From assembly GCA_965200975.1 (NCBI GenBank), contig OZ241740.1:1996244-2060243 (forward strand): DNA of 64,000 bases, given 5' to 3'. Position numbers and translations under genes: made by a program. The notes under the pieces are model-generated. The model was not told where the DNA came from. It saw only the letters and a program-made list of their open reading frames with translations, and did not search any database. This stretch comes from Dehalococcoidia bacterium. Its GTDB lineage: Bacteria; Chloroflexota; Dehalococcoidia; Lucifugimonadales; Australimonadaceae. Every line of letters starts with the position of its first letter. Position 1 is the first letter of the stretch. Positions 1,844 to 62,489 of the stretch are shown piece by piece.

Positions 1844-2050
1844 GGCTGCCAGGGGGTCTGGGGGAGCGGACGCTCTCCCAGCTGCTACGCAACACCGGCG
1901 CCCCGCCCATAACAGCCCCCAGCTGCTACGCAACACCGGCGCCCCCGCCTGCTCAGAGGCGCCCCCACGCAACAGCTCGCCTGCCCAGAGCACGCCGCCT
2001 TGTCGACAACTCCCGGGAGAGAGTTCTCTCCCCCGGACCCCCTCATTATT
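1844..2050 (+). repeat. REPIN/MITE-like element, copy A (contains an internal ~40-bp duplication)
   Basis: Left end ggctgccAGGGGGTCTGGGGGAGCGGACGCTCTCCCAGCTGCTACGC. Right end CTCCCGGGAGAGAGTTCTCTCCCCCGGACCCCCTCATTATT. The two ends are inverted copies of each other and each is itself a hairpin. Confidence 0.9.
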
Positions 2051-2114
2051 GCTCCTGCTGCGCGCTTGCTCCTGCTGCGCGCTCGCGCCTGCTTAGGGAC
2101 GCCGCCCGCCAGAC

Positions 2115-2279
2115 GGCTGCCAGGGGGTCTGGGGGAGCGGACGCTCTCCCAGCTGCTACGCAACACCGGCGCCCCCGCCTGCTCAGAGGCGCCCCCACGC
2201 AACAGCTCGCCTGCCCAGAGCACGCCGCCTTGTCGACAACTCCCGGGAGAGAGTTCTCTCCCCCGGACCCCCTCATTAT
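2115..2279 (+). repeat. REPIN/MITE-like element, copy B
   Basis: Near-identical to 1920-2050 over ~165 bp, with the same terminal hairpins. Confidence 0.9.
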
Positions 2280-2343
2280 GTATTGCAGCGCGCCCGCGCT
2301 TGCTGAGGGCGCGCGCGGTGGGGAATTCCTTGGTTGCAGACTG

Positions 2344-2374
2344 TTGACAGCGGCAACCGGATAACTCGTATACT
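2344..2374 (+). promoter_or_regulatory. sigma70-type promoter of cassette 1
   Basis: TTGACA (2344-2349), 19-nt spacer, TATACT (2369-2374). The same arrangement sits at the same place upstream of cassette 3 and resembles the rpmH promoter at 41389. Confidence 0.6.
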
Positions 2375-2497
2375 ATTGCCCCCGTTGGGCGTTTTGCCCG
2401 GCGGCGCCTCGCCGGATAGAGGGCGGGGCGCGGCGGTCTGCGATAGCCGTTCAGGAGGGCGAACGCTTCCTGCGGCGATCAGGAAAGGAGGAGCGCG
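2375..2497 (+). promoter_or_regulatory. conserved ~120-nt 5' leader of cassette 1 with covarying hairpins
   Basis: Alignable with 4943-5060. GCGCCTCGCC..GGCGGGGCGC and CAGGAGG..CTTCCTG stems change compensatorily in copy 3. Ends in the RBS GGAAAGGAGG. Confidence 0.4.
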
Positions 2498-3396
2498 ATG
2501 AGTGCGCTTTCGAGTGTTCGTCCCGTTCGGTTGGTTGCCCTGCTGGCTGCGCTACTCGCGCTCGTCTCACTCGGCATCCCCCCCCCGCACACGCAGCGTA
2601 TGAGGACTGCCCGGGGAGCACGTGCACGATAGCGGTCGATGACTCCACGGACGTCCTCACGATCACCTACACAGACACAGACCACAACGGTGTAACGACG
2701 ACATTGACGGCGTCGGTGACGTTCACCAATGACTCAGGCGACCCCGGTTGGGAGAATCCGACATTCACAGGGGGGCTGAGGCTTCCTGCTCAGACTCCTC
2801 CCTATGAATTTGGCGATCTGCCCTCCAACCGTTGGTTGTACTCCAACGAAGTCTACTTCTACGAGAACAACGACCGGTTCTACATTCGGCGCGGCGGCTA
2901 TAACAGCGTGGGCATCAACGGCGGCTATAACAGCGTGGGCATCAACGGCGACTATAACGCTGAGACCGGCAACGTCGATTTCCTCGTCATCGGCACCGAT
3001 CCCGACCAGACCTTCACCGTATCCGGAACCCCGGCCACCCCGCCCTCGACCCTCGACCTCGGCACGTGCACGGTGAGCTCCGGTGGCGAGAGCGGCAACT
3101 GGTGCACCACCAACACGCCGAAGATCACCGTCACCTACGACGACAACGATACGTCGAGCGTCAACCTGCGGATATGGGGGCGCAAGCCGTCCTACAACCC
3201 GGCTAGCATCAAGCGCGCCTCTAACGGCGGACACATAGGCATACCCGGGTGGCGGAGCAGCGTCCGCACGATAACGTTCTCGCGCAACGGCTACGAGGAC
3301 GTTAAGGTGGACTTCTCGGTGGACTACCGCAACGACTTGGATCCCCCCTTGCACGGCAGCAGGTTCGTTCTCTCGGCTTGGGAGCGCGACTACTAG
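2498..3396 (+). CDS. secreted protein, paralog 1 (signal peptide and mature domain in different frames at a C9 tract)
   Basis: ATG 2498 with RBS gives MSALSSVRPVRLVALLAALLALVSLGIPPP, then stops at 2630-2632. The mature frame is open from the C-run through ORF 2704..3396. One extra C would give ...PPPPAHA|AYEDC, an AxA cleavage site. Confidence 0.7.
2893..2946 (+). repeat. perfect 27-bp tandem duplication inside paralog 1
   Basis: ggcggctataacagcgtgggcatcaac occurs twice back to back (GGYNSVGIN x2), followed by a diverged third unit. Confidence 0.95.
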
Positions 3397-3432
3397 CAAG
3401 CGCGCAAGCGCACAAGCAGCAACGAGTAGAGA

Positions 3433-3469
3433 GGGGCGGGGGCCATGCGTGGCCCCCGCCCTTTCTTTG
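3433..3469 (+). terminator. Rho-independent terminator of cassette 1
   Basis: GGGCGGGGGCCA-tgcg-TGGCCCCCGCCC followed by TTTCTTTG. Confidence 0.85.
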
Positions 3470-3497
3470 CGCCCCGCGCGGCTGGCGGCTGCCCCTT

Positions 3498-3662
3498 GGC
3501 TGCCAGGGGGTCTGGGGGAGCGGACGCTCTCCCAGCTGCATCGCAACACCGGCGCCCCGGCTGCTCAGAGGCGCCCCCACGCAACAGCTTGCCTGCCCGG
3601 AGCACGCGCGCTTGTCGACAACTCCCGGGAGAGAGTTCTCTCCCCCGGACCCCCTCATTATT
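3498..3662 (+). repeat. REPIN/MITE-like element, copy C
   Basis: Same two terminal hairpins and core as copies A and B. Confidence 0.9.
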
Positions 3663-3740
3663 GTTTGCTGCGCGCCCGCGCTTGCTCCCTCGTTATTTGC
3701 TTGCTCCGCGCCCGCGCTTGCGCCGCCTCGTTATTGCCCC
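3663..3740 (+). repeat. iterated sub-terminal motif array (GCGCTTGC..CCTCGTTATT)
   Basis: cgcgcttgctccctcgttatt and cgcgcttgcgccgcctcgttatt follow directly after the ..CCCCCTCATTATT end of copy C. Confidence 0.7.
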
Positions 3741-3792
3741 CTGCGCAAAGCGCCCCTCCGTGGCCCAGAGCGCCCGCTCTCCCGGCGCGCTG

Positions 3793-3822
3793 TTGACAGG
3801 GGCGCGTGGAGGCTGGTATAAG
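3793..3822 (+). promoter_or_regulatory. sigma70-type promoter of cassette 2 (extended -10)
   Basis: TTGACA (3793-3798), 18-nt spacer, TGG-TATAAG (3814-3822). Confidence 0.6.
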
Positions 3823-3938
3823 AATCCCCCCGCTGGGGCGGCCTGTCTCGCGGGGATCCTTGCCGGAAAGGGCGAGGAGCGACAGCGATTCCGTTCCGGG
3901 AGGCGGGCGCCCCCCGCGACAGATAAGAAGGAGTGCCA

Positions 3939-4489
3939 ATGAGTTCGCTTCTGAGCATTCGTCCCGTCTGGTTGGTCGCCATGCTGCTGCGCTGCTCGCG
4001 CTCGCCTCGCTCGGCATTGGCGCCCTCCTCTCCCCCGCCGCGCATGCGCAATCGGCGACCGTCATCGACGGTCAGGGCCGCAGCAGCATAGAGCTTCCCC
4101 CCATCAAGCCCCTGCCCCGCGGCGGCGTCCTCGACCTCGGCTCGTGCACGGTGCCCGTCCCCGGCGTGCACGGTAACGCCTACGAGTGCACCACCGACAC
4201 GCCGACGATCAGCGTCACCTACTTCAACGACGAGTCCCGGGTCTCGAGCGTCGATCTGCGGATATACGCCGGCAAGCCGTCGTACAACCCGGCCAGCAGG
4301 AGGTACGCTCCTCGCGGGCGTATTTGGATACCCGGGTGGGGGAACAGGGTCCGCACGATAACGTTCTCGCACCGCGACCTCCCGAACATTCTCGTGAACT
4401 TCAGGGTGTCCCGCAGCTGCGACGACGATGGCAACTGCAAGCCCGTCCTCACGGTTTGGGAGCAGCAAAGCAACTTCTGGTACCGGTAG
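3939..4489 (+). CDS. secreted protein, paralog 2 (short form; 1-nt frame break inside the signal peptide)
   Basis: RBS AAGGAG plus ATG 3939 gives MSSLLSIRPVWLVA, then goes off frame. The mature frame (ORF 3806..4489) reads ..AAALLALASLGIGALLSPAAHA|QSATV. Alignment to copy 1 shows one nucleotide missing near 3980. Confidence 0.65.
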
Positions 4490-4517
4490 AAGCGCAAGCG
4501 CAACCTACAGCAAGAGA

Positions 4518-4554
4518 GGGGCGGGGGCCACGCAACACCCCCGCCCCCTTTTTG
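4518..4554 (+). terminator. Rho-independent terminator of cassette 2
   Basis: GGGGCGGGGG-ccacgcaaca-CCCCCGCCCC followed by TTTTTG. Confidence 0.85.
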
Positions 4555-4584
4555 CGTCCTGCCCACAACGCCAAGCGGGTGCGG

Positions 4585-4622
4585 AGAATAACGGGGGGGG
4601 GATAACGAGGGCGCGGGGGGAG
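4585..4622 (+). repeat. iterated sub-terminal motif array (ATAACG(A)GGGGG)
   Basis: gagaataacggggggggg, gataacgagggcg and gagaataacgaggggg stacked in front of copy D. Confidence 0.65.
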
Positions 4623-4859
4623 AATAACGAGGGGGTCTGGGGGAGCGGACGCTCTCCCAGCTACAACGCAACACCCCCGCCTCGCCCATAACAGCCCCCT
4701 GCGCAACCGCGCTCGGCGCTGCCCCCGGCTGCCAGGGGGCGCCGCCCGGACGGCTGCCCCCCGCTGCAACGGCAATGAGCGCTGTCTGCTGTTGTATGGG
4801 CGGCGCCGGCTGCCGACACTCCCGGGAGAGAGTTCTCTCCCCCAGACCCCCTCGTTATT
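4623..4859 (+). repeat. REPIN/MITE-like element, copy D (long variant, subfamily II core)
   Basis: Ends AATAACGAGGGGGTCTGGGGGAGCGGACGCTCTCCCAGCTAC ... CTCCCGGGAGAGAGTTCTCTCCCCCAGACCCCCTCGTTATT. The core differs from copies A-C and matches inverted copy E. Confidence 0.85.
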
Positions 4860-4911
4860 CTTCCTCCGCAACCGCGCTTGCGCCCCGCGGGAATTCCCTG
4901 CTTGCAGACTG

Positions 4912-4942
4912 TTGACGGCGGCAACGGGAGGACTCGTATACT
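4912..4942 (+). promoter_or_regulatory. sigma70-type promoter of cassette 3
   Basis: TTGACG (4912-4917), 19-nt spacer, TATACT (4937-4942). The flanking box gaattccctgcttgcagactg is conserved with cassette 1. Confidence 0.6.
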
Positions 4943-5060
4943 AATTGCCCCGTTGGGCGTTTTGCCCGGCGGGCGCCTCGCCTGACAGGGCGAGGCGCGG
5001 CGTCTGCGGCGCCGTTCAGGGGGCGGGCGCTCCCTGCGGCAGTAAGAAAGGAGGAGCGCG

Positions 5061-5884
5061 ATGAGCGCGCTTTCGAGTGTTCGTCCCGTTCGGTTGGTTG
5101 GCCTGCTGGCTGCGCTACTCGCGCTCGTCTCATTCGGCATTTTCACCCCCCCCCCGCGTATGCAGCGTTTACAGACTGCGACAATGAGTCGGGGAGCACG
5201 TGCACGCTAGCGATAAGCGGCGAAACCCTCACGATCACCTTCACCGATGGTGAGACGGCGGCGGTGACGTTCACCACTACCGCAGGCGCCCCCGATTGGA
5301 AAGATGAGACCCTCTCATCGGGTCTGAGTGAAGTGGATTTTTCCACCCTGAGCCGCACACCGCCTATAAAGCTGTTGGGAAACGACGAAGTCTACTTCTA
5401 CAAGAACAACAACCGGTTCTACATTCGGCGCGGCGGGTATCACAGCGTGCGCATCGACGCCGACGAGGACAACAACACCTTCAAGTTCCTCGTCCGCAAC
5501 ATCGGGGAGACCATCACCATAAACGGCTACCCGGACACGATCCTCGACATAACCAATTGCGAGGGCCCCAATGCGCCCGAATGCACCTCGAACAAGCCGA
5601 CGATCAGCGTCGCTTACGCCAACGGCTTTACCTCGAGCGTCCGGTTGCGGGTGCACAGAGGCAAGCCCTCCTATATTCCGAGCAGCCGTAGCCCCGCCTT
5701 TGGCGGAGGATCCATCAGCATACCCGGGTGGGGCAGGAGCATCCGCACGGTAACGTTCTCGCACTCCCTCTTTAAGGACGTCAAGGTGGATTTCGCCGTG
5801 GACTACCGCTGTGATCGGGACTCGGACGGCAAACGCACCAATTGCGGGTACAGGGTCTCGGCCTGGAAGAGCGACAGCCAGTAA
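5061..5884 (+). CDS. secreted protein, paralog 3 (signal peptide and mature domain in different frames at a C10 tract)
   Basis: ATG 5061 gives MSALSSVRPVRLVGLLAALLALVSFGIFTPPP, then stops at about 5208. The mature frame is open through ORF 5264..5884. One extra C would give ..TPPPPAYA|AFTDC. Confidence 0.7.
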
Positions 5885-5914
5885 GCGCGCAAGCGCAAGC
5901 AATGCAACGAGAGA

Positions 5915-5947
5915 GGCGGGGGCCTTGCGTGGCCCCCGCCCTTTTTG
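5915..5947 (+). terminator. Rho-independent terminator of cassette 3
   Basis: GGCGGGGGCC-ttgcgt-GGCCCCCGCC followed by CTTTTTG. Confidence 0.85.
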
Positions 5948-6009
5948 CGCCCTGCGCGCCCTGCGCGCCCGCGCCTGCGCTTGGCAGCCGAGTGCTGGCG
6001 GGGAGGAGG

Positions 6010-6177
6010 AAATAACGAGGGGGTCCGGGGGAGAGAACTCTCTCCCCCGGGAGTTGTCGGCAAGTCGGCGCCCCTCAAACAGCAGACAGCGCTCATACGT
6101 TGCGCAGGGGCTGCTATGGGCGGGGCGGTTGCGTTGCAGCTGGGAGAGCGTCCGCTCCCCCAGACCCCCTCGTTATT
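6010..6177 (-). repeat. REPIN/MITE-like element, copy E (inverted, subfamily II core)
   Basis: AAATAACGAGGGGGTCCGGGGGAGAGAACTCTCTCCCCCGGGAG ... CAGCTGGGAGAGCGTCCGCTCCCCCAGACCCCCTCGTTATT. The core is the reverse complement of the copy D core. Confidence 0.85.
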
Positions 6178-6250
6178 CTCCCCCCGCCGCCCCTGCCCCC
6201 CCTCATTATTGCTTGCTCCCCCCGCCGCCCCTGCCCCTCGTTATTCTTCT
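6178..6250 (+). repeat. iterated sub-terminal motif array
   Basis: cccgccgcccctgccccccctcattatt and ccgccgcccctgcccctcgttatt follow copy E. Confidence 0.6.
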
Positions 6251-9497: not shown

Positions 9498-9716
9498 ATG
9501 TCTTACGTCGTTTACGAATACAAACCCAGCAATTACGCGACGGCTCACCGGGCGGACTGCCGCTTTGTCAGGCAGCACGGGGGTGTGAGCAAGAATCCGG
9601 GCGATGTCCAATATCACGAACCTTTCGATACGCCCGAGGAGGCGCGCAGCAAACTCCTCAGTCTCAATAAGCGACACACCAAGGTTTGCTCAGTCTGTAG
9701 TCCTTTTCAGTTGTAG
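9498..9716 (+). CDS. small hypothetical protein (low-GC orphan)
   Basis: ORF 9498..9716. GC is visibly lower than its surroundings. It has a Cys pair at the C-terminus (CSVCS). No family recognised. Confidence 0.45.
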   Translation: MSYVVYEYKPSNYATAHRADCRFVRQHGGVSKNPGDVQYHEPFDTPEEARSKLLSLNKRHTKVCSVCSPFQL

Positions 9717-9732
9717 CCCTTGGCGATGTCCC

Positions 9733-11217
9733 CTACTCCTCGCACTCCTGTAGCAGCGCGTCGAGGATGCGCGCCATCGCCTCGGTGTCGCGGCGACAGT
9801 AGGCGAGGAGCGCGCTGCGGATCGCGGCGCGCTCCTCTTCCGGCGTTTCCGGCGCCGTCATGCGGAGGTACGATGCCGCGGCAGCCTCGCCGTCCGCGAT
9901 ATCCAGGTCGCCGTAGCCGAACCCGGGAACGAGCGCGGGCAGCGCCGATTTGAGAGAGAAGCTTCCGCGAAATCCCGGGTGGTAGTAGCCGCCGCGGACT
10001 ATCGCCAGCAAGTCGACGATGCGGCCTGCGAGGGCGAGCAGCCCGTCGCTGTATTCGGGGAACGTCCCGGCGAGATTCCGCAGAATCCTCCCCTCATAGT
10101 CGGAGTAGGCGAGGATGGGCCCCTCGGCAGGCGCCGCGTCGAGCAGGCTTGCCGCGAACCGCTCGCGCGGGTCGTCGCCGTCCGTGTTGAGGAACTCGCA
10201 GTGTTCGAGCTCGCCCTGCGCGTCGCGCACATGAAGCGACCACTGAAAGGGGACCGTCTGGAACGGCCTCGCGCCGGGGTAGACGGGAAGGATCGCCATA
10301 AACGTTTCGAAGTCGAGAAAGCCGACGGGCAGGCCAAGCGCCCGCAGCTGCGGCCCAAGCTCGGGGCCGACGAAGGGGCGCCCCGTTGCGACGCTCTCCC
10401 GCACGCGGCGCTGTAGCGCGTTGAGGCCGGGGAAGTCCGGCGGAATCGCGGCGATGTCGCCTACTTGCGCCTCCTGTAGCTGGCGCCACAGTTGAGGGCG
10501 CAGGCCCGGCAGCTCGCGCACCGGATGCTCGGGTTCGCCGGCGTGGCAATGCCCGAAGAACGGGCACCGGTACGGCGACCTGCACTGCGGGCCGGTCGGG
10601 ATATCCGGCGGCGCCTCCCGCTCCAGCGTCTCCCACATCGACGGCAGGTCGCCGGCGATCTGCTCGGCGAGGAGCGCCCGAACGCTCTCCGTTACGTCGG
10701 CGAGCGTGAAGAGTTGGAGCAGGTCGTACTCGCCGCCCTGATAGACGTGCTCCTTGTTGAGGTGCATCAGAAACACGTTGTCGACGGCTACGCCGGCACC
10801 CTCGACGACGTACGTCTGGATAGCCGCGTCCGTCCTGTGCTGGGCCTTGACGCTGCCGGTCGACTTGACTTCGATGAGATCGAAGCCGCCGCCGGCGTTG
10901 GGCGCGAGAATGTCGACGCGCACCCGGATGCCCTCGAAAGCGAAGGCCGCCTCGAAGAGCGGCGCGGGCGCCGGCTCGGCCAGGAGCGCGCGCGTCCGCT
11001 CGACCGCCTGATCGTGTTCGAGGTGCGACTCGTCGACGAGCACGCCGTCGGGCCACCGCCGCCGCGCCGTCTCGCCGACGACGTCCCCCATATCGAACCG
11101 CGCCTGCTGCCCCGCGTCGACCGGATCGGCGAGCCCCCAGTGGTAGCTCTCCAGATAGAGCCTCTTCAGACACTGCAGGCCGTACTGAAACCGCGATTTC
11201 GAGAGCGAGAGGGGCAT
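9733..11217 (-). CDS. DUF2779-type protein (PD-(D/E)XK / Cas4-like nuclease with Cys cluster)
   Basis: ORF starts MPLSLSKSRFQYGLQCLKRLYLE and has the CRSPYRCPFFGHC cluster. Its start overlaps the upstream stop (TGATG). Confidence 0.65.
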   Translation of the reverse strand: MPLSLSKSRFQYGLQCLKRLYLESYHWGLADPVDAGQQARFDMGDVVGETARRRWPDGVLVDESHLEHDQAVERTRALLAEPAPAPLFEAAFAFEGIRVRVDILAPNAGGGFDLIEVKSTGSVKAQHRTDAAIQTYVVEGAGVAVDNVFLMHLNKEHVYQGGEYDLLQLFTLADVTESVRALLAEQIAGDLPSMWETLEREAPPDIPTGPQCRSPYRCPFFGHCHAGEPEHPVRELPGLRPQLWRQLQEAQVGDIAAIPPDFPGLNALQRRVRESVATGRPFVGPELGPQLRALGLPVGFLDFETFMAILPVYPGARPFQTVPFQWSLHVRDAQGELEHCEFLNTDGDDPRERFAASLLDAAPAEGPILAYSDYEGRILRNLAGTFPEYSDGLLALAGRIVDLLAIVRGGYYHPGFRGSFSLKSALPALVPGFGYGDLDIADGEAAAASYLRMTAPETPEEERAAIRSALLAYCRRDTEAMARILDALLQECEE

Positions 11218-13558: not shown

Positions 13559-14516
13559 ATGCTCCCCAGGCAGCTCACATTCGTCACCCTCGGGCTCGCA
13601 GCGTCCGCCGCGCTCGTCCTGCTCGCATTCGCCGCGTGCAGCAATCCAACGCCGACGCCTACCTCCGCGCCGCCAACGCCGACTCCGACAGCCACGCCGA
13701 CGGCAACCCCGTCTCCTACGCCGACGCCTACGCCGACGCCTACGCCGACGCCTACGCCGACGCCTACGCCGGCGCCGACTCCCACCCCTACGCTCGCGCC
13801 TGCCCCCGCTCCAACGCCGACGCCAACACCGGCGCCGGAGCAGACAGAATCGCCGGAACCTCCAGGCGCCATCGACGACCTCGTGATCACCGACGCCACT
13901 ACGATGGCCGACATCGTGAGCGCGCTCTCCGAGGAGGAAGCCTCCTGCGTCAGAGAGGCCGTCGGCCCCGAACAGTTCGACGCGGCGCAGGACACGCCTC
14001 TGGCGGAGCTCGGCCCCGAAGTTGGCGCCCTTTCCCACGCACTGCCTCGCTCCTGAGGCCGCCGTCAGCCTCGGCATCGCTATGATGTCGACGCAGACCG
14101 GCGGGCTCACCCCCGAGTCGCGCGACTGCCTCCAAACCCTTGGAATGGAGCAGCCCAGCGTCTTCGGCGTCGGCGAACCCCCGGAAGACCCCTCCGCCCT
14201 CTTCTCCGCAGCCTTACGCTTGCAGCTCTGCCTCACCGACGAGGAAGCCGCGAACCTCCTCGGCGCCGACGGAGTGGACGGAGAAGCGTTGCGGTGCCTG
14301 GTCGACCAGATGGGCGGCGAGGACGCGCTCACCGCCCTCTTCTCCGACGACCTGGACCTCGCCGGGCTGCTCAGCCTCTTCGCCGCAGCCGAGGAGTGCG
14401 GCGTGAGCTTCGCGCCCGAAGGCGCCTCGCCAAACAGCATCGCGCCCAACGGCATGTCCGACGGCATGACGCTGGACAGCATGGCGCCGGAAGGCGCCGC
14501 GCCCGACTCCCCCTGA
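13559..14516 (+). CDS. lipoprotein with long Pro-Thr linker; frame break near 14015-14030
   Basis: Lipobox LLAFAAC, then a (TP)n linker. ORF 13559..14056 and ORF 14022..14516 share a repeated x-C-(L/V)-x-x-E helical motif and read as one gene if one indel is corrected. Confidence 0.65.
13718..13765 (+). repeat. perfect 12-nt tandem repeat (acgccgacgcct x4) encoding TPTP
   Basis: Four exact units, embedded in a longer degenerate PT-coding tract at about 13650-13840. Confidence 0.9.
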
Positions 14517-14630
14517 GAACTCCCTCCGGGGGACGCGCCCGGCGGCGGCGTCCTCTCTCTCCTCCCGTCGGGGGGAATCGCCTGAACCCGCCCCAGCCAA
14601 GCGCCCCTAACCCCCAGGGGGCGGCGCCCC

Positions 14631-14801
14631 GGCTGTGGCCGCCAGGGGGTCTGGGGGAGCGGACGCTCTCCCAGCTGCTACGCAACACCCCCGCCGCGCC
14701 TGCTTAGAGGCGCCCCCACGCAACAGCTTGCCTGCCCAGAGCACGCGCGCTTGTCGGCAACTCCCGGGAGAGAGTTCTCTCCCCCGGACCCCCTCATTAT
14801 T
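14631..14801 (+). repeat. REPIN/MITE-like element, copy F
   Basis: Same terminal hairpins and subfamily I core. Confidence 0.9.
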
Positions 14802-14882
14802 CGCTCCTCCCCCCGCTCGCGCTTGCCCCCTCGTTATTGCTCGCGGCGCGCCCCGCCTGCCAGAGCGCGCCGCCCGCCGGAT

Positions 14883-15015
14883 GGCTGCCAGGGGGTCTGG
14901 GGGAGCGGACGCTCTCCCAGCTGCTACGCAACACCGGCACCGCGCCTGCTCAGAGCACGCCGCCTTGTCGACAACTCCCGGGAGAGAGTTCTCTCCCCCG
15001 GACCCCCTCATTATT
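14883..15015 (+). repeat. REPIN/MITE-like element, copy G (core-deleted short form)
   Basis: Both terminal hairpins are intact. The core is about 35 bp shorter than in copy F. Confidence 0.85.
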
Positions 15016-15100
15016 TGCTCCTCTCCCCACTCGCGCTTGCTCCCCTCGTTATTCTTCCTCCCCGCTCGCGCTTGCCCCCCCCTCGTTGTATTGCTGCGCG
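15016..15100 (+). repeat. iterated sub-terminal motif array
   Basis: ctcgcgcttgctcccctcgttatt and ctcgcgcttgcccccccctcgttgtatt follow copy G. Confidence 0.7.
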
Positions 15101-15164
15101 CGCTCCCTGGGCAGCGTGACAATTGGCGGTTGCGCGGGGCGCTTGGACGCTGGATGCTGCGGGT

Positions 15165-15503
15165 ATGTCGCTCGAACATGCTCGCGAAATGCGATCGAAT
15201 CCGACGGAGGCGGAGGCTGCGCTGTGGCAGCGTCTGCGGCGGAACAGGCTCGACGGCATCCACTTCAGGCGGCAGGCGTTGCGCGGGCGGTACATCGTCG
15301 ACTTCCTTGCTCCGAAGGCCCGGCTGGTTGTCGAGATCGACGGCGGGCAGCACGGGGGCGCGTACGACGCCCAGCGGGACCGCGCTCTGCAGCGGATGGG
15401 GTATACGGTGCTGCGGTTCTGGAACAACGAGGCGCTCACGAACGTAGAAGGAGTGCTGGAGGTCATTCGCCGCGCAGCGCACCCCGAGGGCGAGGGGCAA
15501 TAA
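15165..15503 (+). CDS. DUF559 endonuclease-domain protein (Vsr-like PD-(D/E)XK)
   Basis: In-frame ATG 15165 of ORF 15123..15503: MSLEHAREMRSNPTEAEAALWQRLRR..FRRQ...YIVDF...VVEIDGGQH...VLRFWNNE. Confidence 0.85.
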   Translation: MSLEHAREMRSNPTEAEAALWQRLRRNRLDGIHFRRQALRGRYIVDFLAPKARLVVEIDGGQHGGAYDAQRDRALQRMGYTVLRFWNNEALTNVEGVLEVIRRAAHPEGEGQ

Positions 15504-15536
15504 CGAGGGGGGCGGAGGACATTAACGAGGGGGCGA
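15499..15536 (+). repeat. iterated sub-terminal motif array (AATAACGAGGGGG x3)
   Basis: caataacgagggggg, cattaacgaggggg and aaataacgaggggg; the last one is the true end of copy H. Confidence 0.7.
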
Positions 15537-15703
15537 AATAACGAGGGGGTCTGGGGGATCGGACGCTCTCCCAGCTGCTACGCAACACCGCCGCCCCCGG
15601 CTGCTCAGAGGCGCCCCCACGCAACCGCTTGCCTGCCCCAGAGCACGCGCGCTTGTCGACAACTCCCGGGAGAGAGTTCTCTCCCCCGGACCCCCTCATT
15701 ATT
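15537..15703 (+). repeat. REPIN/MITE-like element, copy H
   Basis: AATAACGAGGGGGTCTGGGGGATCGGACGCTCTCCCAGCTGCTACGC ... CTCCCGGGAGAGAGTTCTCTCCCCCGGACCCCCTCATTATT. Confidence 0.9.
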
Positions 15704-15923
15704 TTCTCCTCTCCGCGCTCGCGCTTGCTTAGGGGGCAGCAGCGCGATGGGCGTGCGGCGTGAGGGGGGTTCCCAAAGCAGGCGGAATGGTGCAACCTTA
15801 GGGCGAGCCCCGTTGAGAGGCAGCGCCCACCCTCACGGCGCTCACCCTCGCGGCGCTCATCGACCGTTCGCATTGTCGGCGCCGCACTAATGGCTTAGCC
15901 TGCCGCCGGAGGAGCTTCAGCAT

Positions 15924-16346
15924 ATGCCCGACACCATTATCACCGCCGCGATGCAGGCAGCCGTCGGCGCGAAAGGCGAGGAGCGGCAGGCTGTCGTCGA
16001 ACGCGGCGCCATCGAACGGTTCGCCGCCGCCATCGGCGACGATAACCCGCTCTTCCCCGACATCGCCCCGCCCACGTTCCTCCGCTCGATCGGCCGCGCC
16101 ATCCCCGCCCTGCCCGACGGCGACGCCGTGCCGCGCGCGCTCGACGGCGGCAGCGAGTGGACCTACGGCCCGCCCGTCCGCGCCGGCGACTCCATCGCAT
16201 ACTCCACCCAGCTCGAGGCGCTCGTGGAGCGCCAGGGACGCATGGGCCCGATGCTCATCGCCACCTATTTCACCCAGTACGTGAACCAGCGCGGCGAGGT
16301 AGTAGCCACCCAGCGCAACACCACTATCAGGATGCCGGAAGCATGA
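15924..16346 (+). CDS. MaoC-N / FAS1-like dehydratase domain protein
   Basis: ORF 15924..16346, ...ERGAIERFAAAIGDDNPLF. ATGA overlap with the next gene. Confidence 0.7.
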   Translation: MPDTIITAAMQAAVGAKGEERQAVVERGAIERFAAAIGDDNPLFPDIAPPTFLRSIGRAIPALPDGDAVPRALDGGSEWTYGPPVRAGDSIAYSTQLEALVERQGRMGPMLIATYFTQYVNQRGEVVATQRNTTIRMPEA

Positions 16347-30577: not shown

Positions 30578-31903
30578 CTACGACCGCGCGATGTTGTACT
30601 GCAGCGCCGTATGCGTCGCCGTCGACCGGCTCCCCGTGCGCTCCGCAAACGCCGCGCGCATGCTCACCACCATCACGTTCTGACGCTTCTGGATATCCCG
30701 CTCCGTCTCGATCAGCAGCTCCCGCCTGAACCCCTTCCGCCACTGCGTGCGGTTCACCAGAAGCAACCGCCCCTTGTTCGACACGTTCCCCGCCGCCGTC
30801 ACCTTGCCGTCCGTGTCCGCCTCCTGCAGCTGCTCCGACACGATAACCGGCGTCCCTTCCACAGCTCCAAGCTGACCGGTCAGCAGCGTCGCGTGCGGCC
30901 CCAGCTTGTCCACCGTCTGGAAACCCTCGATTCCCACCGCCGCAATGTACGTGTTCACGTCCGTCACGAATGCAAGCTCCGACGGACGAAGCCCGTACTT
31001 CCCTATCTTCCGGCGCAGCTCATTGAACATATCGACCGACGCCGCGGCGTTATGGTTGTTCCGCATACTCGTGTTGTCCACAAGCGGCAGATGCAGGAGC
31101 CCGTCGAACCCGATGAGGAAGTGCGCCGAGCCCGCCGTCGTTTTCGCCAGCGTCCCACCGTCGTAGTTGACGTTCCCCGTCGTCGACTGGTCGGCGTTGA
31201 GGATGACGTCGTCGAGCACCTGAGCCGCGTTCCGCAGCAGCGTCGACCTCACCTCGGCCATCATCGCCGCCACGGAGTCCTCATCCAACTCATACGCCCA
31301 CGGCACCATCCCCACCAGCTCGTGAGCCGTAAGCGTCTGCTTCGCCGTCTTCAGGTCCGTCGCAGTCGCCGCGGTGTTCGCCGCGCCCGGGTACCAGTTC
31401 ACATCTCCCAGCTCCAGCGGAATGTCGAACGGGTTCGAGGGCATCGTCACCGTGTCGAACAGCGACGCCACCGCAGCCTCCGCGTTCACGTCCGCCCACA
31501 ACTGACGCGCCGCCTCCTGCGGCACCAGCTCGTCCCCCGCCCCTGCCGTCGTCGAGTCCATCGCCTTCGCGACGCTCTCCTCCCACGCCCGCAGCGACCG
31601 GGGATCGTAGTCCTGCGGACGGGCCTGCTGAGCCGCCAGCAGGCTCCGGGCGATCGCCACGTCCACCAGGTCGAAACCGTCGAACTTCCCGCCCCGGACG
31701 CGCGCCCGATCGTTCGTCGGACGTCCCAGCAGCGCCTCCCGGCGCGACGCGCGGTCGCGGTCGAGCGTGCGGCGGACCTCGCTCGCCAGCCGTTCCTGCT
31801 CCTCCCGCACGAGCGACAACTCGCGCGTGATCGGGTCGATCCGCTCCCGCACGAACTCCTGCGTCTGCACTATCTCCCGCTGCACTTCTTCGATCACCGT
31901 CAT
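30578..31903 (-). CDS. HK97-family phage major capsid protein with N-terminal coiled-coil (delta-like) domain
   Basis: ATG 31903 with RBS GGGGAGGA. Coiled-coil N-terminus, then ...ELVPQEAARQLWADV...PSNPFDIPL...AYELDEDS. Confidence 0.85.
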   Translation of the reverse strand: MTVIEEVQREIVQTQEFVRERIDPITRELSLVREEQERLASEVRRTLDRDRASRREALLGRPTNDRARVRGGKFDGFDLVDVAIARSLLAAQQARPQDYDPRSLRAWEESVAKAMDSTTAGAGDELVPQEAARQLWADVNAEAAVASLFDTVTMPSNPFDIPLELGDVNWYPGAANTAATATDLKTAKQTLTAHELVGMVPWAYELDEDSVAAMMAEVRSTLLRNAAQVLDDVILNADQSTTGNVNYDGGTLAKTTAGSAHFLIGFDGLLHLPLVDNTSMRNNHNAAASVDMFNELRRKIGKYGLRPSELAFVTDVNTYIAAVGIEGFQTVDKLGPHATLLTGQLGAVEGTPVIVSEQLQEADTDGKVTAAGNVSNKGRLLLVNRTQWRKGFRRELLIETERDIQKRQNVMVVSMRAAFAERTGSRSTATHTALQYNIARS

Positions 31904-32056
31904 ACGTCCTCCCCTACCTGTTGTTCTCTGCACTCGTCGCCGTCCCGGCCTTCTCTTCCGCCCTCCCCTCTGCGCGTCTGGGCCTGTTTCGTCTCGTCCG
32001 CCTCGCCCTCCTGTCTGTTCCCCTCACCCCCAACACGCCGCCCGCCGGCGAGCGGA

Positions 32057-32761
32057 CTACGCCACCAACCGCCGAAGCCGGCGAAGCTCCGCAATCAGCC
32101 GGCGCGCCGCTTCCGGATCGATCGAGTCCGGCGAGGGATCGAACGTGAATATCGACCGCAGCCGCGGCGCCGACACGACTCCGCCGTCGAGCGCCCGCGC
32201 CAGCGCGCCCGGGTTCGCCGGCACCGGCGCCGCGCTCAGCTCCAGCAGCTCCTGGCTCGTGTACTCGATCCCCTCGACCCCGCCGTCGCGCCCCTTCCGG
32301 AACGTGAACGCCCGCGGACGAAACCCGACGCTCACCGCCCGCAGAAACCGCTGCCGGTACAGCGTCTCCACCTCTCGCGCGAACTCTGTCGGCGCAAACT
32401 CGAGCGTCGCCACCAAGCGGCTCCCGTCGACGCCCACCCACGAACTCCGGCCTATCGGCGTTCGCGTGTAGTCGTGCGCCCACAGAAACACCGGGTTCCG
32501 CTTGTACGCCCGCAGATCCCAGCCGTCCGCCCGCACTACGTCCCCCAGACGGTCCACCGTCTCGTCCGACGCCACCACCGTCAGCGGACGCTCCTCGTTC
32601 GGCGACGATGCGTGGTTCACCACGAACTTCTGCACCACGGGAGCGTCGGCCATCCCCCGCCGGTACGCATCCAGCGACTCGTACAGCCGCTCACGCTCCC
32701 ACCGCTCCCGGTCGCTCTCCGACGGCGTCCCGCCGCCTGCCGACATCGTCGTACCCCTCAT
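32057..32761 (-). CDS. HK97-family prohead protease
   Basis: ...VFLWAHDYTRTPIGRS...LRAVSVGFRP.. typical of the prohead serine protease. RBS GGAGGA upstream. Confidence 0.85.
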   Translation of the reverse strand: MRGTTMSAGGGTPSESDRERWERERLYESLDAYRRGMADAPVVQKFVVNHASSPNEERPLTVVASDETVDRLGDVVRADGWDLRAYKRNPVFLWAHDYTRTPIGRSSWVGVDGSRLVATLEFAPTEFAREVETLYRQRFLRAVSVGFRPRAFTFRKGRDGGVEGIEYTSQELLELSAAPVPANPGALARALDGGVVSAPRLRSIFTFDPSPDSIDPEAARRLIAELRRLRRLVA

Positions 32762-32934
32762 CTGCGCTCCTCCATCAGTTGATCGGCTGACTACCCAGCC
32801 ACTTCGACGGCAAACAAAAACCCCGGCCCTCTCGAAAGGGGCCGGGGCTCATCCCCGACGCATCATCGGGCTCCTCGCCCGACGCAACCCAGCATACGTC
32901 CTTGAATGTCAGTTACGCAACAGCATTATGTCGC
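32692..32934. repeat. 243-bp direct repeat, left copy (protease 5' end + RBS + terminator hairpin)
   Basis: Matches 34143-34386 with a handful of mismatches and one 1-nt indel. Confidence 0.95.
32811..32847 (-). terminator. Rho-independent terminator (inside the left direct repeat)
   Basis: The minus strand reads CCCCGGCCCC-tttcgaga-GGGCCGGGG followed by TTTTTGTTTG. Confidence 0.8.
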
Positions 32935-32959
32935 GCTTACTCGTCCGTCCGCGCCGATG

Positions 32960-33623: not shown

Positions 33624-33635
33624 GTTGCCTCCTCC

Positions 33636-34064: not shown

Positions 34065-34142
34065 CTCTCAGTGCCTCCTTACCTTGGGTTTTACCATCGC
34101 ACCCCTCGCCGGTCAATTTGCCCCCCTGCCGCTACCCCAAGC

Positions 34143-36897: not shown

Positions 36898-36936
36898 CCA
36901 GGGGGTCTGGGGGAGCGGACGCTCTCCCAGCTGCGC
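36898..36936 (+). repeat. solo REP-like hairpin (left-end type) between terminase and portal
   Basis: CCAGGGGGTCTGGGGGAGCGGACGCTCTCCCAGCTGC is identical to the left ends of the full elements. Confidence 0.9.
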
Positions 36937-39721: not shown

Positions 39722-39888
39722 CCACAATCCCCAAACCCCTCTCTCGCCCCCACTCCCCCACTCCAACCCCCGCGCTTTACCCCTCGCCGCGCTTTACCCC
39801 CCTCCCTCCCGCAGCGGGGGGAGGGTTGGGGAGAGGGGCAGAGAGGGGCAGCTCCGCCACTCCAACCCCCTGCGCTTTACCCCACAAC

Positions 39889-55377: not shown

Positions 55378-55416
55378 CCCAGGGGGTCTGGGGAAGCGGA
55401 CGCTCTCCCAGCTACG
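55378..55416 (+). repeat. solo REP-like hairpin
   Basis: CCCAGGGGGTCTGGGGAAGCGGACGCTCTCCCAGCTACGCC. Confidence 0.9.
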
Positions 55417-62307: not shown

Positions 62308-62489
62308 CCCACCCCACACCAACCAGGGGGTCTGGGGGAGCGAACGCTCTCCCAGTTTGCGTAGATATCGTTCGTCTGAAAGTACCGCAGCGCGGCGAAT
62401 GCCCGGATGCGCCGGACCTCCGGGTCGCCCTTGCCGGGCAACTCTGCGCCGCCCCAGAACTGCTTACGCGGGTCAATCTTCTCCGTCAC
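62304..62489 (-). CDS. small paralog P3 (C-terminus replaced by repeat DNA)
   Basis: MTEKIDPRKQFWGGAELPGKGDPEVRRIRAFAALRYFQTND.. aligns with P1 and P2 up to the repeat junction. Confidence 0.4.
   Translation of the reverse strand: MTEKIDPRKQFWGGAELPGKGDPEVRRIRAFAALRYFQTNDIYANWESVRSPRPPGWCGVG
62323..62357 (+). repeat. solo REP-like hairpin truncating small ORF P3
   Basis: CCAGGGGGTCTGGGGGAGCGAACGCTCTCCCAG. Its antisense translation forms the C-terminus (NWESVRSPRPPG) of ORF 62304..62489. Confidence 0.9.

What the first reader, a model, noticed from the sequence alone, without database searches (positions are those of the whole stretch)
1844..2279. Abundant ~165-bp REPIN/MITE-like element whose inverted ends are themselves hairpins
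There are eight full copies: 1844-2050, 2115-2279, 3498-3662, 4623-4859, 6010-6177 (inverted), 14631-14801, 14883-15015 and 15537-15703. There are three solo ends: 36898, 55378 and 62323. The ends are AATAAYGAGGGGGTCYGGGGGAG...CTCTCCC in inverted orientation. Each end folds into a ~10-bp stem, and the single G.T pair sits on the same relative strand in both ends. In most full copies a CTAC (GTAG on the other strand) sits 0-3 nt from the inner foot of the left hairpin. This is the layout described for REP sequences recognised by RAYT (Y1) transposases. Two core subfamilies exist (A-C and F-H versus D and E), and copy G has a core deletion. No transposase is present in the window.
Basis: partly seen in the sequence, partly recalled or inferred. 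Interest (0 to 1): 0.7.

Follow-up and report, generated by a model that had tools for sequence, protein, structure and literature searches.

The report
Triplex-motif repeats flanking a DUF559 nuclease
The ~165-bp repeats are real: each is an inverted pair of a BoxC-type "triplex motif" (a G-rich box plus a hairpin), a long-known bacterial repeat of unknown origin, and one small nuclease gene (DUF559/YcjD family) sits between such motifs here and in many unrelated bacteria, so it is a candidate partner enzyme.

Summary
The 16-mer AGGGGGTCYGGGGGAG occurs 19 times (0.36 expected), as eight inverted pairs plus three solo units, all intergenic. No target-site duplication was found.

The REP/RAYT reading is only partly right. 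Each end is GAGGGGG-TCY-GGGGGAG-loop-CTCTCCC: a mirror-repeat purine box plus a 10-bp homopurine/homopyrimidine hairpin. That is the block layout of BoxC/PIT/"TM" intrastrand-triplex motifs (Holder 2015), here as a class I variant. As in E. coli, two variant types always pair in inverted orientation. No transposase or RAYT was detected in the window.

A DUF559 (YcjD/Vsr-fold) nuclease gene (15165-15503) lies between copies G and H, with the boxes facing the gene. The same polar layout (hairpin-box, gene, box-hairpin) recurs around DUF559 homologues:
- in 80 metagenome loci, full motifs are 25-fold denser within 300 nt of the gene than elsewhere;
- it also occurs in Sphingomonas and Rhodanobacter;
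- a motif lies near E. coli ycjD.

I found no paper linking DUF559 to these motifs.

Best reading: a lineage-specific BoxC/TM-type repeat family whose likely cognate protein is the DUF559 nuclease. The association is shown; mobilisation is inferred. The source genome could not be scanned.

The parts
1844..2050 (+). Doublet A. Left-type unit 1851-1881, core with a 41-nt internal duplication, right-type unit 2013-2043 (read on the minus strand).
2115..2279 (+). Doublet B. Left unit 2122-2152, right unit 2243-2273. It lies about 45 nt upstream of the promoter-like region of the first tandem paralogue.
3498..3662 (+). Doublet C. Left unit 3505-3535, right unit 3625-3655. It follows the terminator hairpin of paralogue 1.
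3651..3735 (-). Array of box-only sub-repeats (ATAAYGAGGGG, period about 36 nt) extending outward from the right end of C.
4588..4859 (+). Doublet D, of the D/E core subfamily with a long core. Left unit 4630-4660, right unit 4822-4852. Two extra boxes precede it at 4588-4612.
6010..6244 (-). Doublet E, in inverted orientation. Right-type unit 6018-6050 on the plus strand, left-type unit 6140-6170 on the minus strand. Extra boxes at 6199-6209 and 6234-6244.
14637..14837 (+). Doublet F. Left unit 14644-14674, right unit 14764-14794. One extra box at 14827-14837.
14883..15089 (+). Doublet G, with a core deletion. Left unit 14890-14920, right unit 14978-15008. Three boxes on the minus strand (15004-15014, 15042-15052, 15079-15089) face the DUF559 gene. 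Together these form the upstream arm (hairpin then boxes) of the DUF559 cassette.
15165..15503 (+). DUF559 (YcjD-like, Vsr-fold PD-(D/E)XK) nuclease gene, 112 aa. It was the only source-contig protein among the 120 best homologues listed.
   Evidence: Pfam PF04480, E = 2.5e-37. Exact protein P0017 sits on the 2,381,319-bp contig. PDB 3HRL, E = 5e-24. Model pLDDT 85; best fold matches are 3HRL, I-Bth0305I and Vsr.
15500..15703 (+). Three boxes on the plus strand (15500-15510, 15522-15532, 15538-15548), then doublet H (left unit 15544-15574, right unit 15666-15696). The boxes plus the left unit form the downstream arm (boxes then hairpin) of the DUF559 cassette.
36900..36930 (+). Solo left-type unit, upstream of the phage-type portal gene.
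55381..55411 (+). Solo left-type unit (one mismatch in the purine arm), upstream of a zinc-type alcohol dehydrogenase gene.
62325..62355 (+). Solo left-type unit, 18 nt after the stop of the Iso_dh gene. Short-read contigs of the same organism end inside it.
39799..39842 (+). Single canonical class II BoxC/TMECO-like motif (CCCCCTCCC..GGGGGGAGGG-TTG-GGGAGAGGGG). It is a different sequence family from the 19 units.

Best explanation
The repeats are a lineage-specific family of BoxC/PIT/'TM'-type intrastrand-triplex motifs.

The unit. The basic unit is about 31 nt:
- a purine box GAGGGGG, which is the mirror image of the next block;
- a 3-nt loop TCY;
- the purine arm GGGGGAG(MG);
- a 4-nt loop;
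- the pyrimidine arm (CK)CTCTCCC.
On one strand it can fold as a 10-bp hairpin. By base-triad rules the box can lie back on the purine arm, giving a class I purine-motif triplex.

Higher-order layout. Two unit variants exist: L (TCT loop, C-G closing pair) and R (TCC loop, A-T closing pair). They always pair in inverted orientation around an ~85-nt core, giving the ~165-bp doublets. Doublets, solo units and box-only 36-nt sub-repeats are combined into BIME-like mosaics in intergenic DNA.

Likely cognate protein. The best candidate is the DUF559/YcjD nuclease encoded between doublets G and H, not a RAYT. The gene is bracketed by units with their boxes facing it (hairpin-box, gene, box-hairpin). 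The same polar cassette surrounds DUF559 homologues in many unrelated bacteria.

Inferred mechanism. The nuclease binds the boxes or the folded unit. It nicks at or near the structure when the DNA is single-stranded or extruded, possibly cued by the conserved stem mismatch. Repair, recombination or copy-and-paste at such nicks then duplicates, inverts and disperses units and doublets. These behave as non-autonomous partners of a single-copy gene, by analogy with REPIN-RAYT.

Status of each step:
- Shown: the repeat family, its structure, its three-block (BoxC/TM-type) layout, and the DUF559 association with its polarity.
- Inferred: triplex formation for this particular sequence, nuclease activity on the units, and any mobilisation.
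For: Repeat family:
- 19 units against 0.36 expected.
- Hairpin 97.9% paired, two compensatory positions, invariant G.T.
- The box is a mirror repeat of the purine arm in all units.

Known class (PMC4666352):
- BoxC/PIT/TM motifs are three-block purine/pyrimidine motifs. Class I is defined as reverse-Hoogsteen domain, then purine, then pyrimidine.
- E. coli has 23 of them, all intergenic. Five inverted pairs always combine type A with type B.
- 13 of the 23 carry one mismatched triplet.
- The authors found no transposase or integrase nearby.

DUF559 link:
- The window gene has three boxes plus a hairpin on each side in mirror symmetry.
- Its two closest homologues (64% and 63% identical; L009, L010) are embedded in arrays of hairpin repeats of different sequence. 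In L009 the repeat families lie at 9583-10641, around the gene at 10001-10324, within a 10.6-kb locus.
- In 80 metagenome loci, 52 share exact words of at least 12 nt between the flanks upstream and downstream of the gene.
- In those loci, full motifs number 2.81 per kb within 300 nt of the gene and 0.114 per kb elsewhere.
- Orientation of the nearest hairpin: upstream 30 hairpin-then-box against 4 box-then-hairpin; downstream 39 box-then-hairpin against 1.
- 34 of 46 loci with at least 2 kb of further sequence have no hairpin with the same arm sequence elsewhere.
- Many homologues have C-terminal tails that look like translated motifs.
- The canonical cassette occurs in Sphingomonas sp. R1 and in Rhodanobacter.
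- In L034 the cassette between carA and carB is inverted relative to L032, L043 and L011, and is there flanked by two ~125-nt box-hairpin-core-hairpin-box doublets.
- E. coli ycjD has TMECO #9 about 170 nt downstream.
- Sampled ycjD-positive E. coli chromosomes hold a median of 21 motif places, against 4 in ycjD-negative ones.

Fold. The nearest solved structures are 3HRL, the homing endonuclease I-Bth0305I, and Vsr.
Against: - No experiment or computation here shows that DUF559 cuts or moves these units. The association could reflect regulation, or target preference of the gene cassette.
- The window family has class I polarity. All motifs detected in the 80 metagenome loci are class II or IV, so the strand logic differs.
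- The conserved doublets have their boxes outside. The gene cassette has its boxes inside.
- The 'elsewhere' control is mostly coding DNA. Per intergenic region I estimate the enrichment at about 5-fold rather than 25-fold.
- The 80 loci are the closest relatives of one DUF559 subfamily.
- The E. coli correlation is confounded by phylogeny. In ycjD-negative lineages the site holds an efflux operon, and some of them still carry 12-18 motifs.
- The E. coli ycjD flanks are not in the canonical arrangement.
- The source genome could not be scanned, so a RAYT elsewhere in it cannot be excluded.
Confidence: 0.5

Rival explanations
1. Host-driven spread. These are BoxC/TM-type structured repeats that spread and persist without a dedicated enzyme. 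The proposed routes are replication slippage, template switching, gene conversion and recombination at non-B DNA. The DUF559 gene would be an independent small selfish or accessory cassette. It would either use such motifs as its own ends or regulatory sites, or insert preferentially into them.
For: - Holder et al. link these motifs to local genome instability and found no mobility genes near them (PMC4666352).
- Part of the local copy pattern follows segmental duplication. B and D sit at the same distance from the homologous promoter regions of tandem paralogues.
- Tandem sub-repeats and an internal 41-nt duplication suggest slippage.
- Some ycjD-negative E. coli keep 12-18 motifs.
- Several DUF559 loci are syntenic across related organisms, so the gene is not highly mobile.
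- The best non-DUF559 fold match is a homing endonuclease.
Against: - The polarity (boxes facing the gene) and the narrow spacing around DUF559 in most of the 80 loci are hard to explain by chance insertion into hot spots.
- The unit sequence differs between lineages while the layout around the gene is kept. That pattern is what co-evolution of a protein and its site would produce.
- The ends are nearly invariant while the cores diverge. This argues for constraint on the ends.
Confidence: 0.28
2. REPIN/REP family mobilised in trans by a RAYT (Y1 HUH transposase) encoded elsewhere in the genome.
For: - Short imperfect palindromes in intergenic DNA, as solo units and inverted pairs, arranged in BIME-like mosaics.
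- CTAC lies 0-3 nt from the hairpin foot in 6 of 8 left-type units and in one solo unit.
- No target-site duplications, as expected for Y1 transposition.
Against: - No Y1 transposase in the window or in any fetched locus.
- The tetranucleotide is absent from all eight right-type units.
- The mirror-repeat box is not a REP feature but is the defining third block of BoxC/TM motifs.
- A different nuclease family is consistently associated with such units.
Confidence: 0.12
3. MITE: an internally deleted derivative of a DDE-transposase insertion sequence, recognised through its ~35-bp terminal inverted repeats.
For: Size of 120-240 bp, long terminal inverted repeats, intergenic location, and two core subfamilies.
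Against: - No target-site duplication at four boundary definitions.
- Solo ends and box-only arrays exist.
- Conservation extends beyond the inverted repeats.
- No related insertion sequence in the window.
- No match in the plasmid collection.
Confidence: 0.04
4. The element acts at the RNA level, as a small RNA, an mRNA-stabilising 3' structure or a terminator, and its copies are kept for that reason.
For: - Several copies lie just downstream of genes (C, D, E, H and the solo unit at 62325).
- Hairpin pairing is maintained.
Against: - No Rfam family matches.
- No terminator-like or promoter-like sites in 14400-16000.
- The whole-element fold is not clearly better than shuffled sequence: z = -2.2 on one strand and -0.7 on the other.
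- As summarised in PMC4666352, Maher and colleagues found no promoter or terminator activity for BoxC/PIT elements.
- According to the same paper, purine-motif triplexes do not form in RNA.
Confidence: 0.05

Closest known systems
BoxC / PIT elements / TMECO intrastrand-triplex motifs (E. coli and more than 260 proteobacterial genomes; Hoyne and Maher 2000, Holder et al. 2015, PMC4666352)
   Same: - Three-block layout: a homopurine/homopyrimidine hairpin plus a third block that mirrors the purine arm, separated by short loops.
- Multi-copy and strictly intergenic.
- Occurs both as single units and as inverted pairs that always combine two variant types.
- Often carries one conserved mismatch in the stem.
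- No transposase nearby.
   Different: - The sequence does not fit the TMECO consensus CCCTCNCCC-N3-6-GGGNGAGGG-N3-GGGNGAGGG.
- The polarity is class I (box at the 5' end of the purine strand) rather than class II.
- The arms are shorter (7-8 triads against 9).
- Pairs have their boxes outside and enclose a conserved ~85-nt core. Four of the five E. coli pairs have boxes inside with 16-27-nt spacers.
- There are extra 36-nt box-only sub-repeats.
REP/BIME and REPIN-RAYT systems (Enterobacteria, Pseudomonas)
   Same: - Short structured intergenic units, as singles and inverted doublets, in mosaic clusters with alternating orientation and conserved linkers.
- A single-copy gene flanked by inverted units, which is the proposed analogy for DUF559.
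   Different: - No Y1/HUH transposase was detected.
- The GTAG/CTAC tetranucleotide is not conserved on both unit types.
- The units carry a triplex-type third block.
- The associated gene belongs to the PD-(D/E)XK Vsr-like fold, which is unrelated to RAYT.
DUF559 / YcjD / NGO0050 (PDB 3HRL), Vsr and the homing endonuclease I-Bth0305I (Vsr-like PD-(D/E)XK nucleases)
   Same: - The window protein matches PF04480 (E = 2.5e-37) and 3HRL (E = 5e-24).
- The model superposes on the I-Bth0305I catalytic domain (TM-score 0.67-0.77) and on Vsr.
   Different: - I found no biochemical function reported for stand-alone DUF559 proteins.
- From prior knowledge, Vsr is a T:G mismatch nickase tied to Dcm methylation, and I-Bth0305I is encoded in an intron.
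- Neither is known to be associated with repeat families.
Bacterial MITEs (Correia/NEMIS, ERIC, RUP)
   Same: Elements of 100-250 bp with terminal inverted repeats, intergenic, and occurring in several subfamilies.
   Different: No target-site duplication. Solo ends and sub-unit arrays are present. No parent insertion sequence was found.

Membership tests
BoxC/PIT/TM intrastrand-triplex motif | Three consecutive blocks: a purine arm, a complementary pyrimidine arm, and a third block that mirrors the purine arm (purine motif), separated by loops of 1-6 nt. | tested here: met
   GAGGGGG-TCY-GGGGGAG-(4-6 nt)-CTCTCCC in all 19 units. My mirror-repeat detector assigns class I/III to the units it detects. 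Class definitions are from PMC4666352.
BoxC/PIT/TM intrastrand-triplex motif | Multi-copy, intergenic, with inverted pairs that combine two variant types. | tested here: met
   19 units, all between the genes I called. All 8 pairs are L plus R. E. coli comparison: 5 of 5 pairs are type A plus type B.
BoxC/PIT/TM intrastrand-triplex motif | Fit to the TMECO consensus CCCTCNCCC-N3-6-GGGNGAGGG-N3-GGGNGAGGG (class II). | tested here: not met
   The 19 units have a different sequence and class I polarity. Only one unrelated site, at 39799-39842, resembles the consensus. The family is therefore a variant of the kind, not a TMECO member.
BoxC/PIT/TM intrastrand-triplex motif | The single strand actually folds into a triplex (shown for TMECO by CD and NMR). 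| not testable with these tools
   ViennaRNA models only Watson-Crick and wobble pairs. Triad compatibility (G*G.C and A*A.T) was checked by eye only.
REP/REPIN-RAYT | A short imperfect palindrome with a conserved GTAG/CTAC at its foot on every unit. | tested here: not met
   CTAC is present in 6 of 8 left-type units and 0 of 8 right-type units.
REP/REPIN-RAYT | A cognate RAYT (Y1 HUH transposase) gene, usually flanked by the REPs. | tested here: inconclusive
   None in the 64-kb window (Pfam scans; RayT tblastn). The rest of the 2.38-Mb contig was not retrievable.
MITE (derived from a DDE transposon) | Terminal inverted repeats plus target-site duplications. | tested here: not met
   Inverted repeats are present. 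No duplication longer than 2 nt at four boundary definitions.
DUF559 / YcjD Vsr-like nuclease (the gene at 15165-15503) | Match to PF04480 above the curated cut-off, and a Vsr-like fold. | tested here: met
   127.5 bits against a cut-off of 20.6. 3HRL, E = 5e-24. Model pLDDT 85; Foldseek hits 3HRL, 3R3P and 1VSR. Acidic residues D46, E57 and D59 are invariant in 36 homologues.
DUF559 / YcjD Vsr-like nuclease (the gene at 15165-15503) | Nuclease activity on the flanking units. | not testable with these tools
   No biochemical data were found in the literature searches.

The most novel reading that the evidence does not exclude
DUF559/YcjD nucleases are the missing cognate enzymes of BoxC/TM triplex-motif repeats. 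Together they would form a widespread, RAYT-REPIN-like partnership between a gene and its repeats, built on an unrelated (Vsr-like PD-(D/E)XK) nuclease that recognises a folded hairpin or triplex DNA structure. On this reading the window's ~165-bp doublets are the non-autonomous partners of the single DUF559 gene at 15165-15503.
Probability: 0.35. Interest if true: 0.85.

Novelty: new variant of a known kind. Interest (0 to 1): 0.68.

Why it matters
BoxC/PIT/TM motifs have been known in E. coli since the 1990s and occur in hundreds of genomes. The main study linked them to genome instability and reported no associated mobility function (PMC4666352). DUF559/YcjD is a very large family of small nucleases with no known role.

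A conserved, polar physical association between the two gives each a testable hypothesis. The test can be run in E. coli K-12, using ycjD and its 23 TMECO sites.

If the nuclease acts on the folded motif, this would be a second, independent invention of the 'domesticated nuclease plus structured repeat' arrangement typified by RAYT-REPIN. It would also be an example of a protein that reads non-B DNA.

For this genome, the finding explains why short-read assemblies break at these sites. It also explains why the repeats look like REPs yet lack a RAYT in the window.

Tried and rejected
1. Collection scans with end patterns. Scans of genome, metagenome and viral collections used 29-nt end patterns: the stricter AGGGGGTCYGGGGGAGMGRACKCTCTCCC for genomes, and a version with NNNNNN in the loop for metagenomes and viruses. 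The only hits were two Elioraea loci carrying a single copy between two conserved genes that look like lpdA and sucB. Short-read contigs end about 25 nt into the motif, so a 29-nt pattern misses them.
2. Retrieving the source contig by exact-protein look-ups. It was never returned.
3. Searching the protein collection with a six-frame translation of the element, to count copies. Only one spurious ORF came back, P0137. It does prove one more cluster exists elsewhere in the genome.
4. Rfam and tRNA scans found nothing.
5. A search of the plasmid collection found no match.
6. A related genome (L007, amidohydrolase 84% identical at DNA level) lacks this family but carries class IV/II BoxC-like motifs.
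7. The idea that the element encodes a peptide (GGAG..AATAATG..MRGSGGENSL) was rejected. ACG replaces ATG in several copies, and the core insertions and deletions are not multiples of three.
8. The idea that the G.T pair is the Vsr-type recognition cue is kept only as speculation. Many metagenomic motifs have perfect stems.
9. The E. coli ycjD presence/absence comparison was informative but not clean. ycjD-negative strains carry an efflux operon at the site rather than an empty cassette.
10. A direct test for a RAYT in the source genome was judged infeasible. Protein searches list only the 120 best hits.
Full report

Yes. The window is 61-71% G+C in 2-kb windows. The 16-mer AGGGGGTCYGGGGGAG, allowing up to 2 mismatches, occurs 19 times against 0.36 expected, and none of 100 shuffles reached that number.

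Three solo units lie at 36900, 55381 and 62325.

An alignment of the eight copies confirms two core subfamilies: A-C and F-H versus D and E. It also confirms the core deletion in G and a 41-nt internal duplication in A.

All copies lie between the genes I could call from codon-position G+C and Pfam.

No target-site duplication is present at any of four boundary definitions.

**2. Anatomy of the unit**

I oriented all 19 ends the same way. Two unit types emerge:
- L type: (C/G)AGGGGG-TCT-GGGGGAGC-GGAC-GCTCTCCCAG. There are 11 copies, including the three solos.
- R type: AATAATGAGGGGG-TCC-GGGGGAGA-GAAC-TCTCTCCCGG. There are 8 copies.

Every doublet is L plus R.

The hairpin has 10 pairs and 97.9% of cells are paired. 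Sliding the 3' partner by 1-3 columns gives only 45-64% pairing. L and R differ at two stem positions by compensatory double changes: U-A/C-G (11/6) and C-G/A-U (11/8). One G.T pair is invariant in 19 of 19 units.

The block 5' of the hairpin, GAGGGGG, is the exact mirror image of the purine arm GGGGGAG.

Conservation does not stop at the ~165 bp. The right flanks share CATTATT..CGCGCTTGC. Several left flanks share CGCCTGC..GGCTGCC. The box itself (ATAAYGAGGGG) occurs 25 times against 0.9 expected. It often forms outward-running arrays with a ~36-nt period next to the ends.

The loci are therefore mosaics of oppositely oriented units with two kinds of conserved linker, much like BIMEs.

**3. 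What the unit is**

The combination of a homopurine/homopyrimidine hairpin and a mirror-repeat third block is the block layout of a known repeat class. These are the motifs first called BoxC in E. coli, later PIT elements, and then 'TM' intrastrand-triplex motifs (Holder et al. 2015, PMC4666352).

That paper defines class I as reverse-Hoogsteen domain, then purine domain, then pyrimidine domain. The window unit has this order.

The E. coli TMECO consensus is CCCTCNCCC-N3-6-GGGNGAGGG-N3-GGGNGAGGG, which is class II. E. coli MG1655 has 23 copies, all intergenic. Five inverted pairs always combine a type A with a type B motif. Thirteen of the 23 carry one mismatched triplet.

The parallels with the window are close: L plus R pairing, an invariant stem mismatch, and both solo and paired forms.

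The authors state that they never found transposase or integrase remnants near the motifs. They link the motifs to local genome instability. As summarised there, Maher and colleagues found no promoter or terminator activity.

The window family does not fit the TMECO consensus and has the opposite polarity. I therefore file it as a new variant of this known kind. One unrelated, canonical class II motif lies at 39799-39842.

**4. Spread beyond the window**

The source is a 2,381,319-bp contig held by NCBI and ENA, but it was never returned by look-ups.

Three lines show that the family is not confined to the listed loci:
- Copies lie at 1.8-6.2 kb, 14.6-15.7 kb, 36.9 kb, 55.4 kb and 62.3 kb of the window.
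- Short-read assemblies of the same organism (SRR33960551-4) end inside the motif.
- A spurious 271-aa ORF of the same contig (P0137), not encoded in the window, reads through at least six further ends of both core subfamilies.

Part of the local pattern is segmental. B and D sit at the same distance from the homologous upstream regions of tandem paralogues.

Public scans with 29-nt end patterns found only one copy in two Elioraea genomes and nothing in metagenomes or viruses. The pattern is slightly longer than what survives at short-read contig ends. The source species was evidently not present in usable form.

**5. The gene between the repeats**

No Pfam transposase family matched any of the 50 ORFs scanned across the window. 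A tblastn search with E. coli RayT found nothing.

Between G and H lies a 112-aa DUF559 protein (15165-15503):
- PF04480, E = 2.5e-37.
- PDB 3HRL, E = 5e-24.
- An AlphaFold model with pLDDT 85. Its best solved matches are 3HRL, the catalytic domain of the homing endonuclease I-Bth0305I, PvuRts1I and Vsr.

Its flanks are mirror-symmetric. Upstream lies the R hairpin of G followed by three boxes on the minus strand. Downstream lie three boxes on the plus strand followed by the L hairpin of H. The boxes face the gene on both sides.

Among the 120 best homologues listed, it is the only protein from the source contig.

**6. Is that arrangement general?**

*Closest homologues.* The two closest (64% and 63% identical) are embedded in arrays of hairpin repeats of different sequence. 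In L009 the repeat families lie at 9583-10641, around the gene at 10001-10324, within a 10.6-kb locus. They form ~150-nt elements on both sides of the gene.

*C-terminal tails.* Many homologues end in tails such as PSPNPSHQGRGV, which look like translated motifs.

*Eighty metagenome loci.* These were retrieved with the family alignment.
- 52 share exact words of at least 12 nt between the 500-nt flanks upstream and downstream of the gene. These are mostly inverted and 20-46 nt long. My estimate of the chance expectation is about 0.01 shared 13-mers per locus.
- Homopurine-arm hairpins number 3.42 per kb within 250 nt of the gene and 0.18 per kb elsewhere.
- Full motifs (hairpin plus mirror block) number 2.81 per kb near the gene and 0.114 per kb elsewhere.
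- 34 of 46 loci with at least 2 kb of extra sequence have no hairpin with the same arm sequence elsewhere.

*Polarity of the nearest hairpin.*

| Side of gene | Hairpin then box | Box then hairpin |
|---|---|---|
| Upstream | 30 | 4 |
| Downstream | 1 | 39 |

The upstream hairpin typically lies at -130 to -45 from the start. The downstream one typically lies at 0 to +60 from the stop.

*Named organisms.* The same cassette is present in Sphingomonas sp. R1, between genes with YqeY and DnaG-primase domains. It is also present in a Rhodanobacter genome.

*The carA-carB site.* In four related metagenome loci the cassette sits between what I read as carA and carB.
- In L034 it is inverted relative to L032, L043 and L011.
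- In L034 it is flanked by two direct copies of a ~125-nt box-hairpin-core-hairpin-box doublet. This is the same architecture as the window's doublets.
- L032 carries a ~45-nt duplication of the carB start on both sides of the cassette.

*Synteny.* Several other DUF559 loci are syntenic between related organisms. The gene therefore behaves more like a resident single-copy gene than like an active insertion sequence.

**7. E. coli as a check**

ycjD, the K-12 DUF559 gene, lies next to fabI. TMECO #9 of Holder's Table 1 (1,351,204-1,351,239) lies about 170 nt downstream of it. With 18 motif loci among roughly 4,300 genes, I estimate the chance of this at about 1%.

The motif has a median of 17 places per complete E. 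coli genome.

ycjD is present in 3,378 of 5,426 complete genomes. In a spread sample:
- ycjD-positive chromosomes hold 13-29 motif places, median 21 (n = 36).
- ycjD-negative chromosomes hold 1-18, median 4 (n = 21).
- Mann-Whitney p = 1e-9.

This comparison is confounded by phylogeny. In the two ycjD-negative genomes I fetched, an efflux operon adjoins sapF where K-12 has ycjD. Some ycjD-negative strains, such as O157:H7, keep about 12 motifs. It is suggestive only.

**8. Literature**

Full-text searches for DUF559, YcjD and COG2852, for BoxC, and for 'intrastrand triplex' found no paper that connects the nuclease family with these repeats. Subscription-only literature is not covered.

**9. 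Mechanism and rivals**

*Shown:* a structured repeat family with the BoxC/TM block layout, and a conserved polar association of such units with DUF559 genes, including the one in this window.

*Inferred:* the nuclease recognises the boxes or the folded unit and nicks there. Repair or recombination then spreads units and doublets. The arrangement would be analogous to REPIN-RAYT but built on an unrelated fold.

*Speculative:* the conserved stem mismatch (G.T here, G.A in most E. coli motifs) is a cue for a Vsr-like mismatch-reading nuclease. Many metagenomic motifs have perfect stems.

*Main rival (0.28).* The motifs spread through host processes at non-B DNA. The DUF559 cassette merely uses or targets them.

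*Other rivals.*
- The RAYT reading (0.12) cannot be excluded without the whole genome. It lacks its defining gene in the window and its tetranucleotide on half of the units.
- The MITE reading (0.04) fails on target-site duplications.
- RNA-level roles (0.05) have no support.

*Points against my own reading.*
- The window units are class I/III. All 80 metagenome loci have class II/IV.
- The conserved doublets have boxes outside, while the gene cassette has boxes inside.
- The 'elsewhere' control is mostly coding sequence. Per intergenic region I estimate the enrichment at nearer 5-fold.

**10. Verdict**

The finding is real and more interesting than a routine REP family. The element is a new variant of a known but unexplained repeat class. 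The window also holds what may be its partner enzyme, in an arrangement that recurs across bacteria and that I did not find described.

Noticed in passing
window 2321-5950: Three tandem paralogous genes with no Pfam match. The first and third have near-identical upstream regions containing TTGACA...TATACT (2321-2404 is 89% identical to 4889-4972). Each gene ends with a G+C-rich hairpin followed by a T-run. The repeat doublets sit between them.
   Followed up: partly
window 30578-36944; 32692-32934 and 34143-34386: Head module of a prophage or gene-transfer-agent-like element: capsid, S78 prohead protease and portal, all on the minus strand. A 243-nt direct repeat (96-99% identical) lies 1.45 kb apart inside it. 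The solo unit at 36900 lies just upstream of the portal gene.
   Followed up: no
window 39799-39842: One canonical class II BoxC/TMECO-like motif (CCCCCTCCC...GGGGGGAGGG-TTG-GGGAGAGGGG). Its sequence is unrelated to the 19 class I units. A GAGAGGGGCA tandem duplication overlaps its 3' end (39831-39851).
   Followed up: partly
window 26000-60000; 43469-45077: Strongly negative GC skew (-0.2 to -0.3) over more than 30 kb. Genes with YidC (60KD_IMP) and Jag/R3H domains lie inside this stretch.
   Followed up: no
window 62304-62888 (minus strand): Three tandem small paralogous ORFs of 61-70 aa that share a DPEVRRIR motif. The solo unit at 62325 overlaps the 3' end of the first.
   Followed up: no
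window 13649-13837: A CGCCGA hexamer array of about 28 copies (also scored with periods of 12 and 24) in the region before doublet F.
   Followed up: no
L004 7597-7625 and L005 899-927 (Elioraea tepidiphila and an Elioraea MAG): A near-identical class I unit (CAGGGGGTCCGGGGGAGAGGACGCTCTCCCCCGG) lies about 75 nt from a second hairpin. Both sit in the gap between two conserved genes that look like lpdA and sucB by sequence. These were the only hits in 185,579 representative genomes.
   Followed up: partly
E. coli: L093 (NC_000913.3 1351000-1352400), L094, L095: ycjD is present in only 3,378 of 5,426 complete E. coli genomes. In the two ycjD-negative genomes I fetched, an efflux operon adjoins sapF where K-12 has ycjD. 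Sampled ycjD-negative chromosomes carry far fewer BoxC/TM places (median 4 against 21).
   Followed up: partly
L032 3876-3925 and 4380-4430: A duplication of about 45 nt of the start of what I read as carB flanks the DUF559 cassette inserted between carA and carB. In the related locus L034 the cassette has the opposite orientation in the same site.
   Followed up: partly
L098 6619-7077 (Rhodanobacter): A tandem array of seven class II triplex motifs with a 73-nt period lies 3 kb from the DUF559 cassette.
   Followed up: no
L007 203-385: In a related genome, three tandem 61-nt repeats (93-95% identical to the reference copy) lie next to several class IV/II BoxC-like motifs. That 21-kb locus has at least six motif sites (detected hairpins at about 519, 642, 3866, 7734 and 9292, plus a weaker copy near 13817) and no DUF559 gene.
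   Followed up: no
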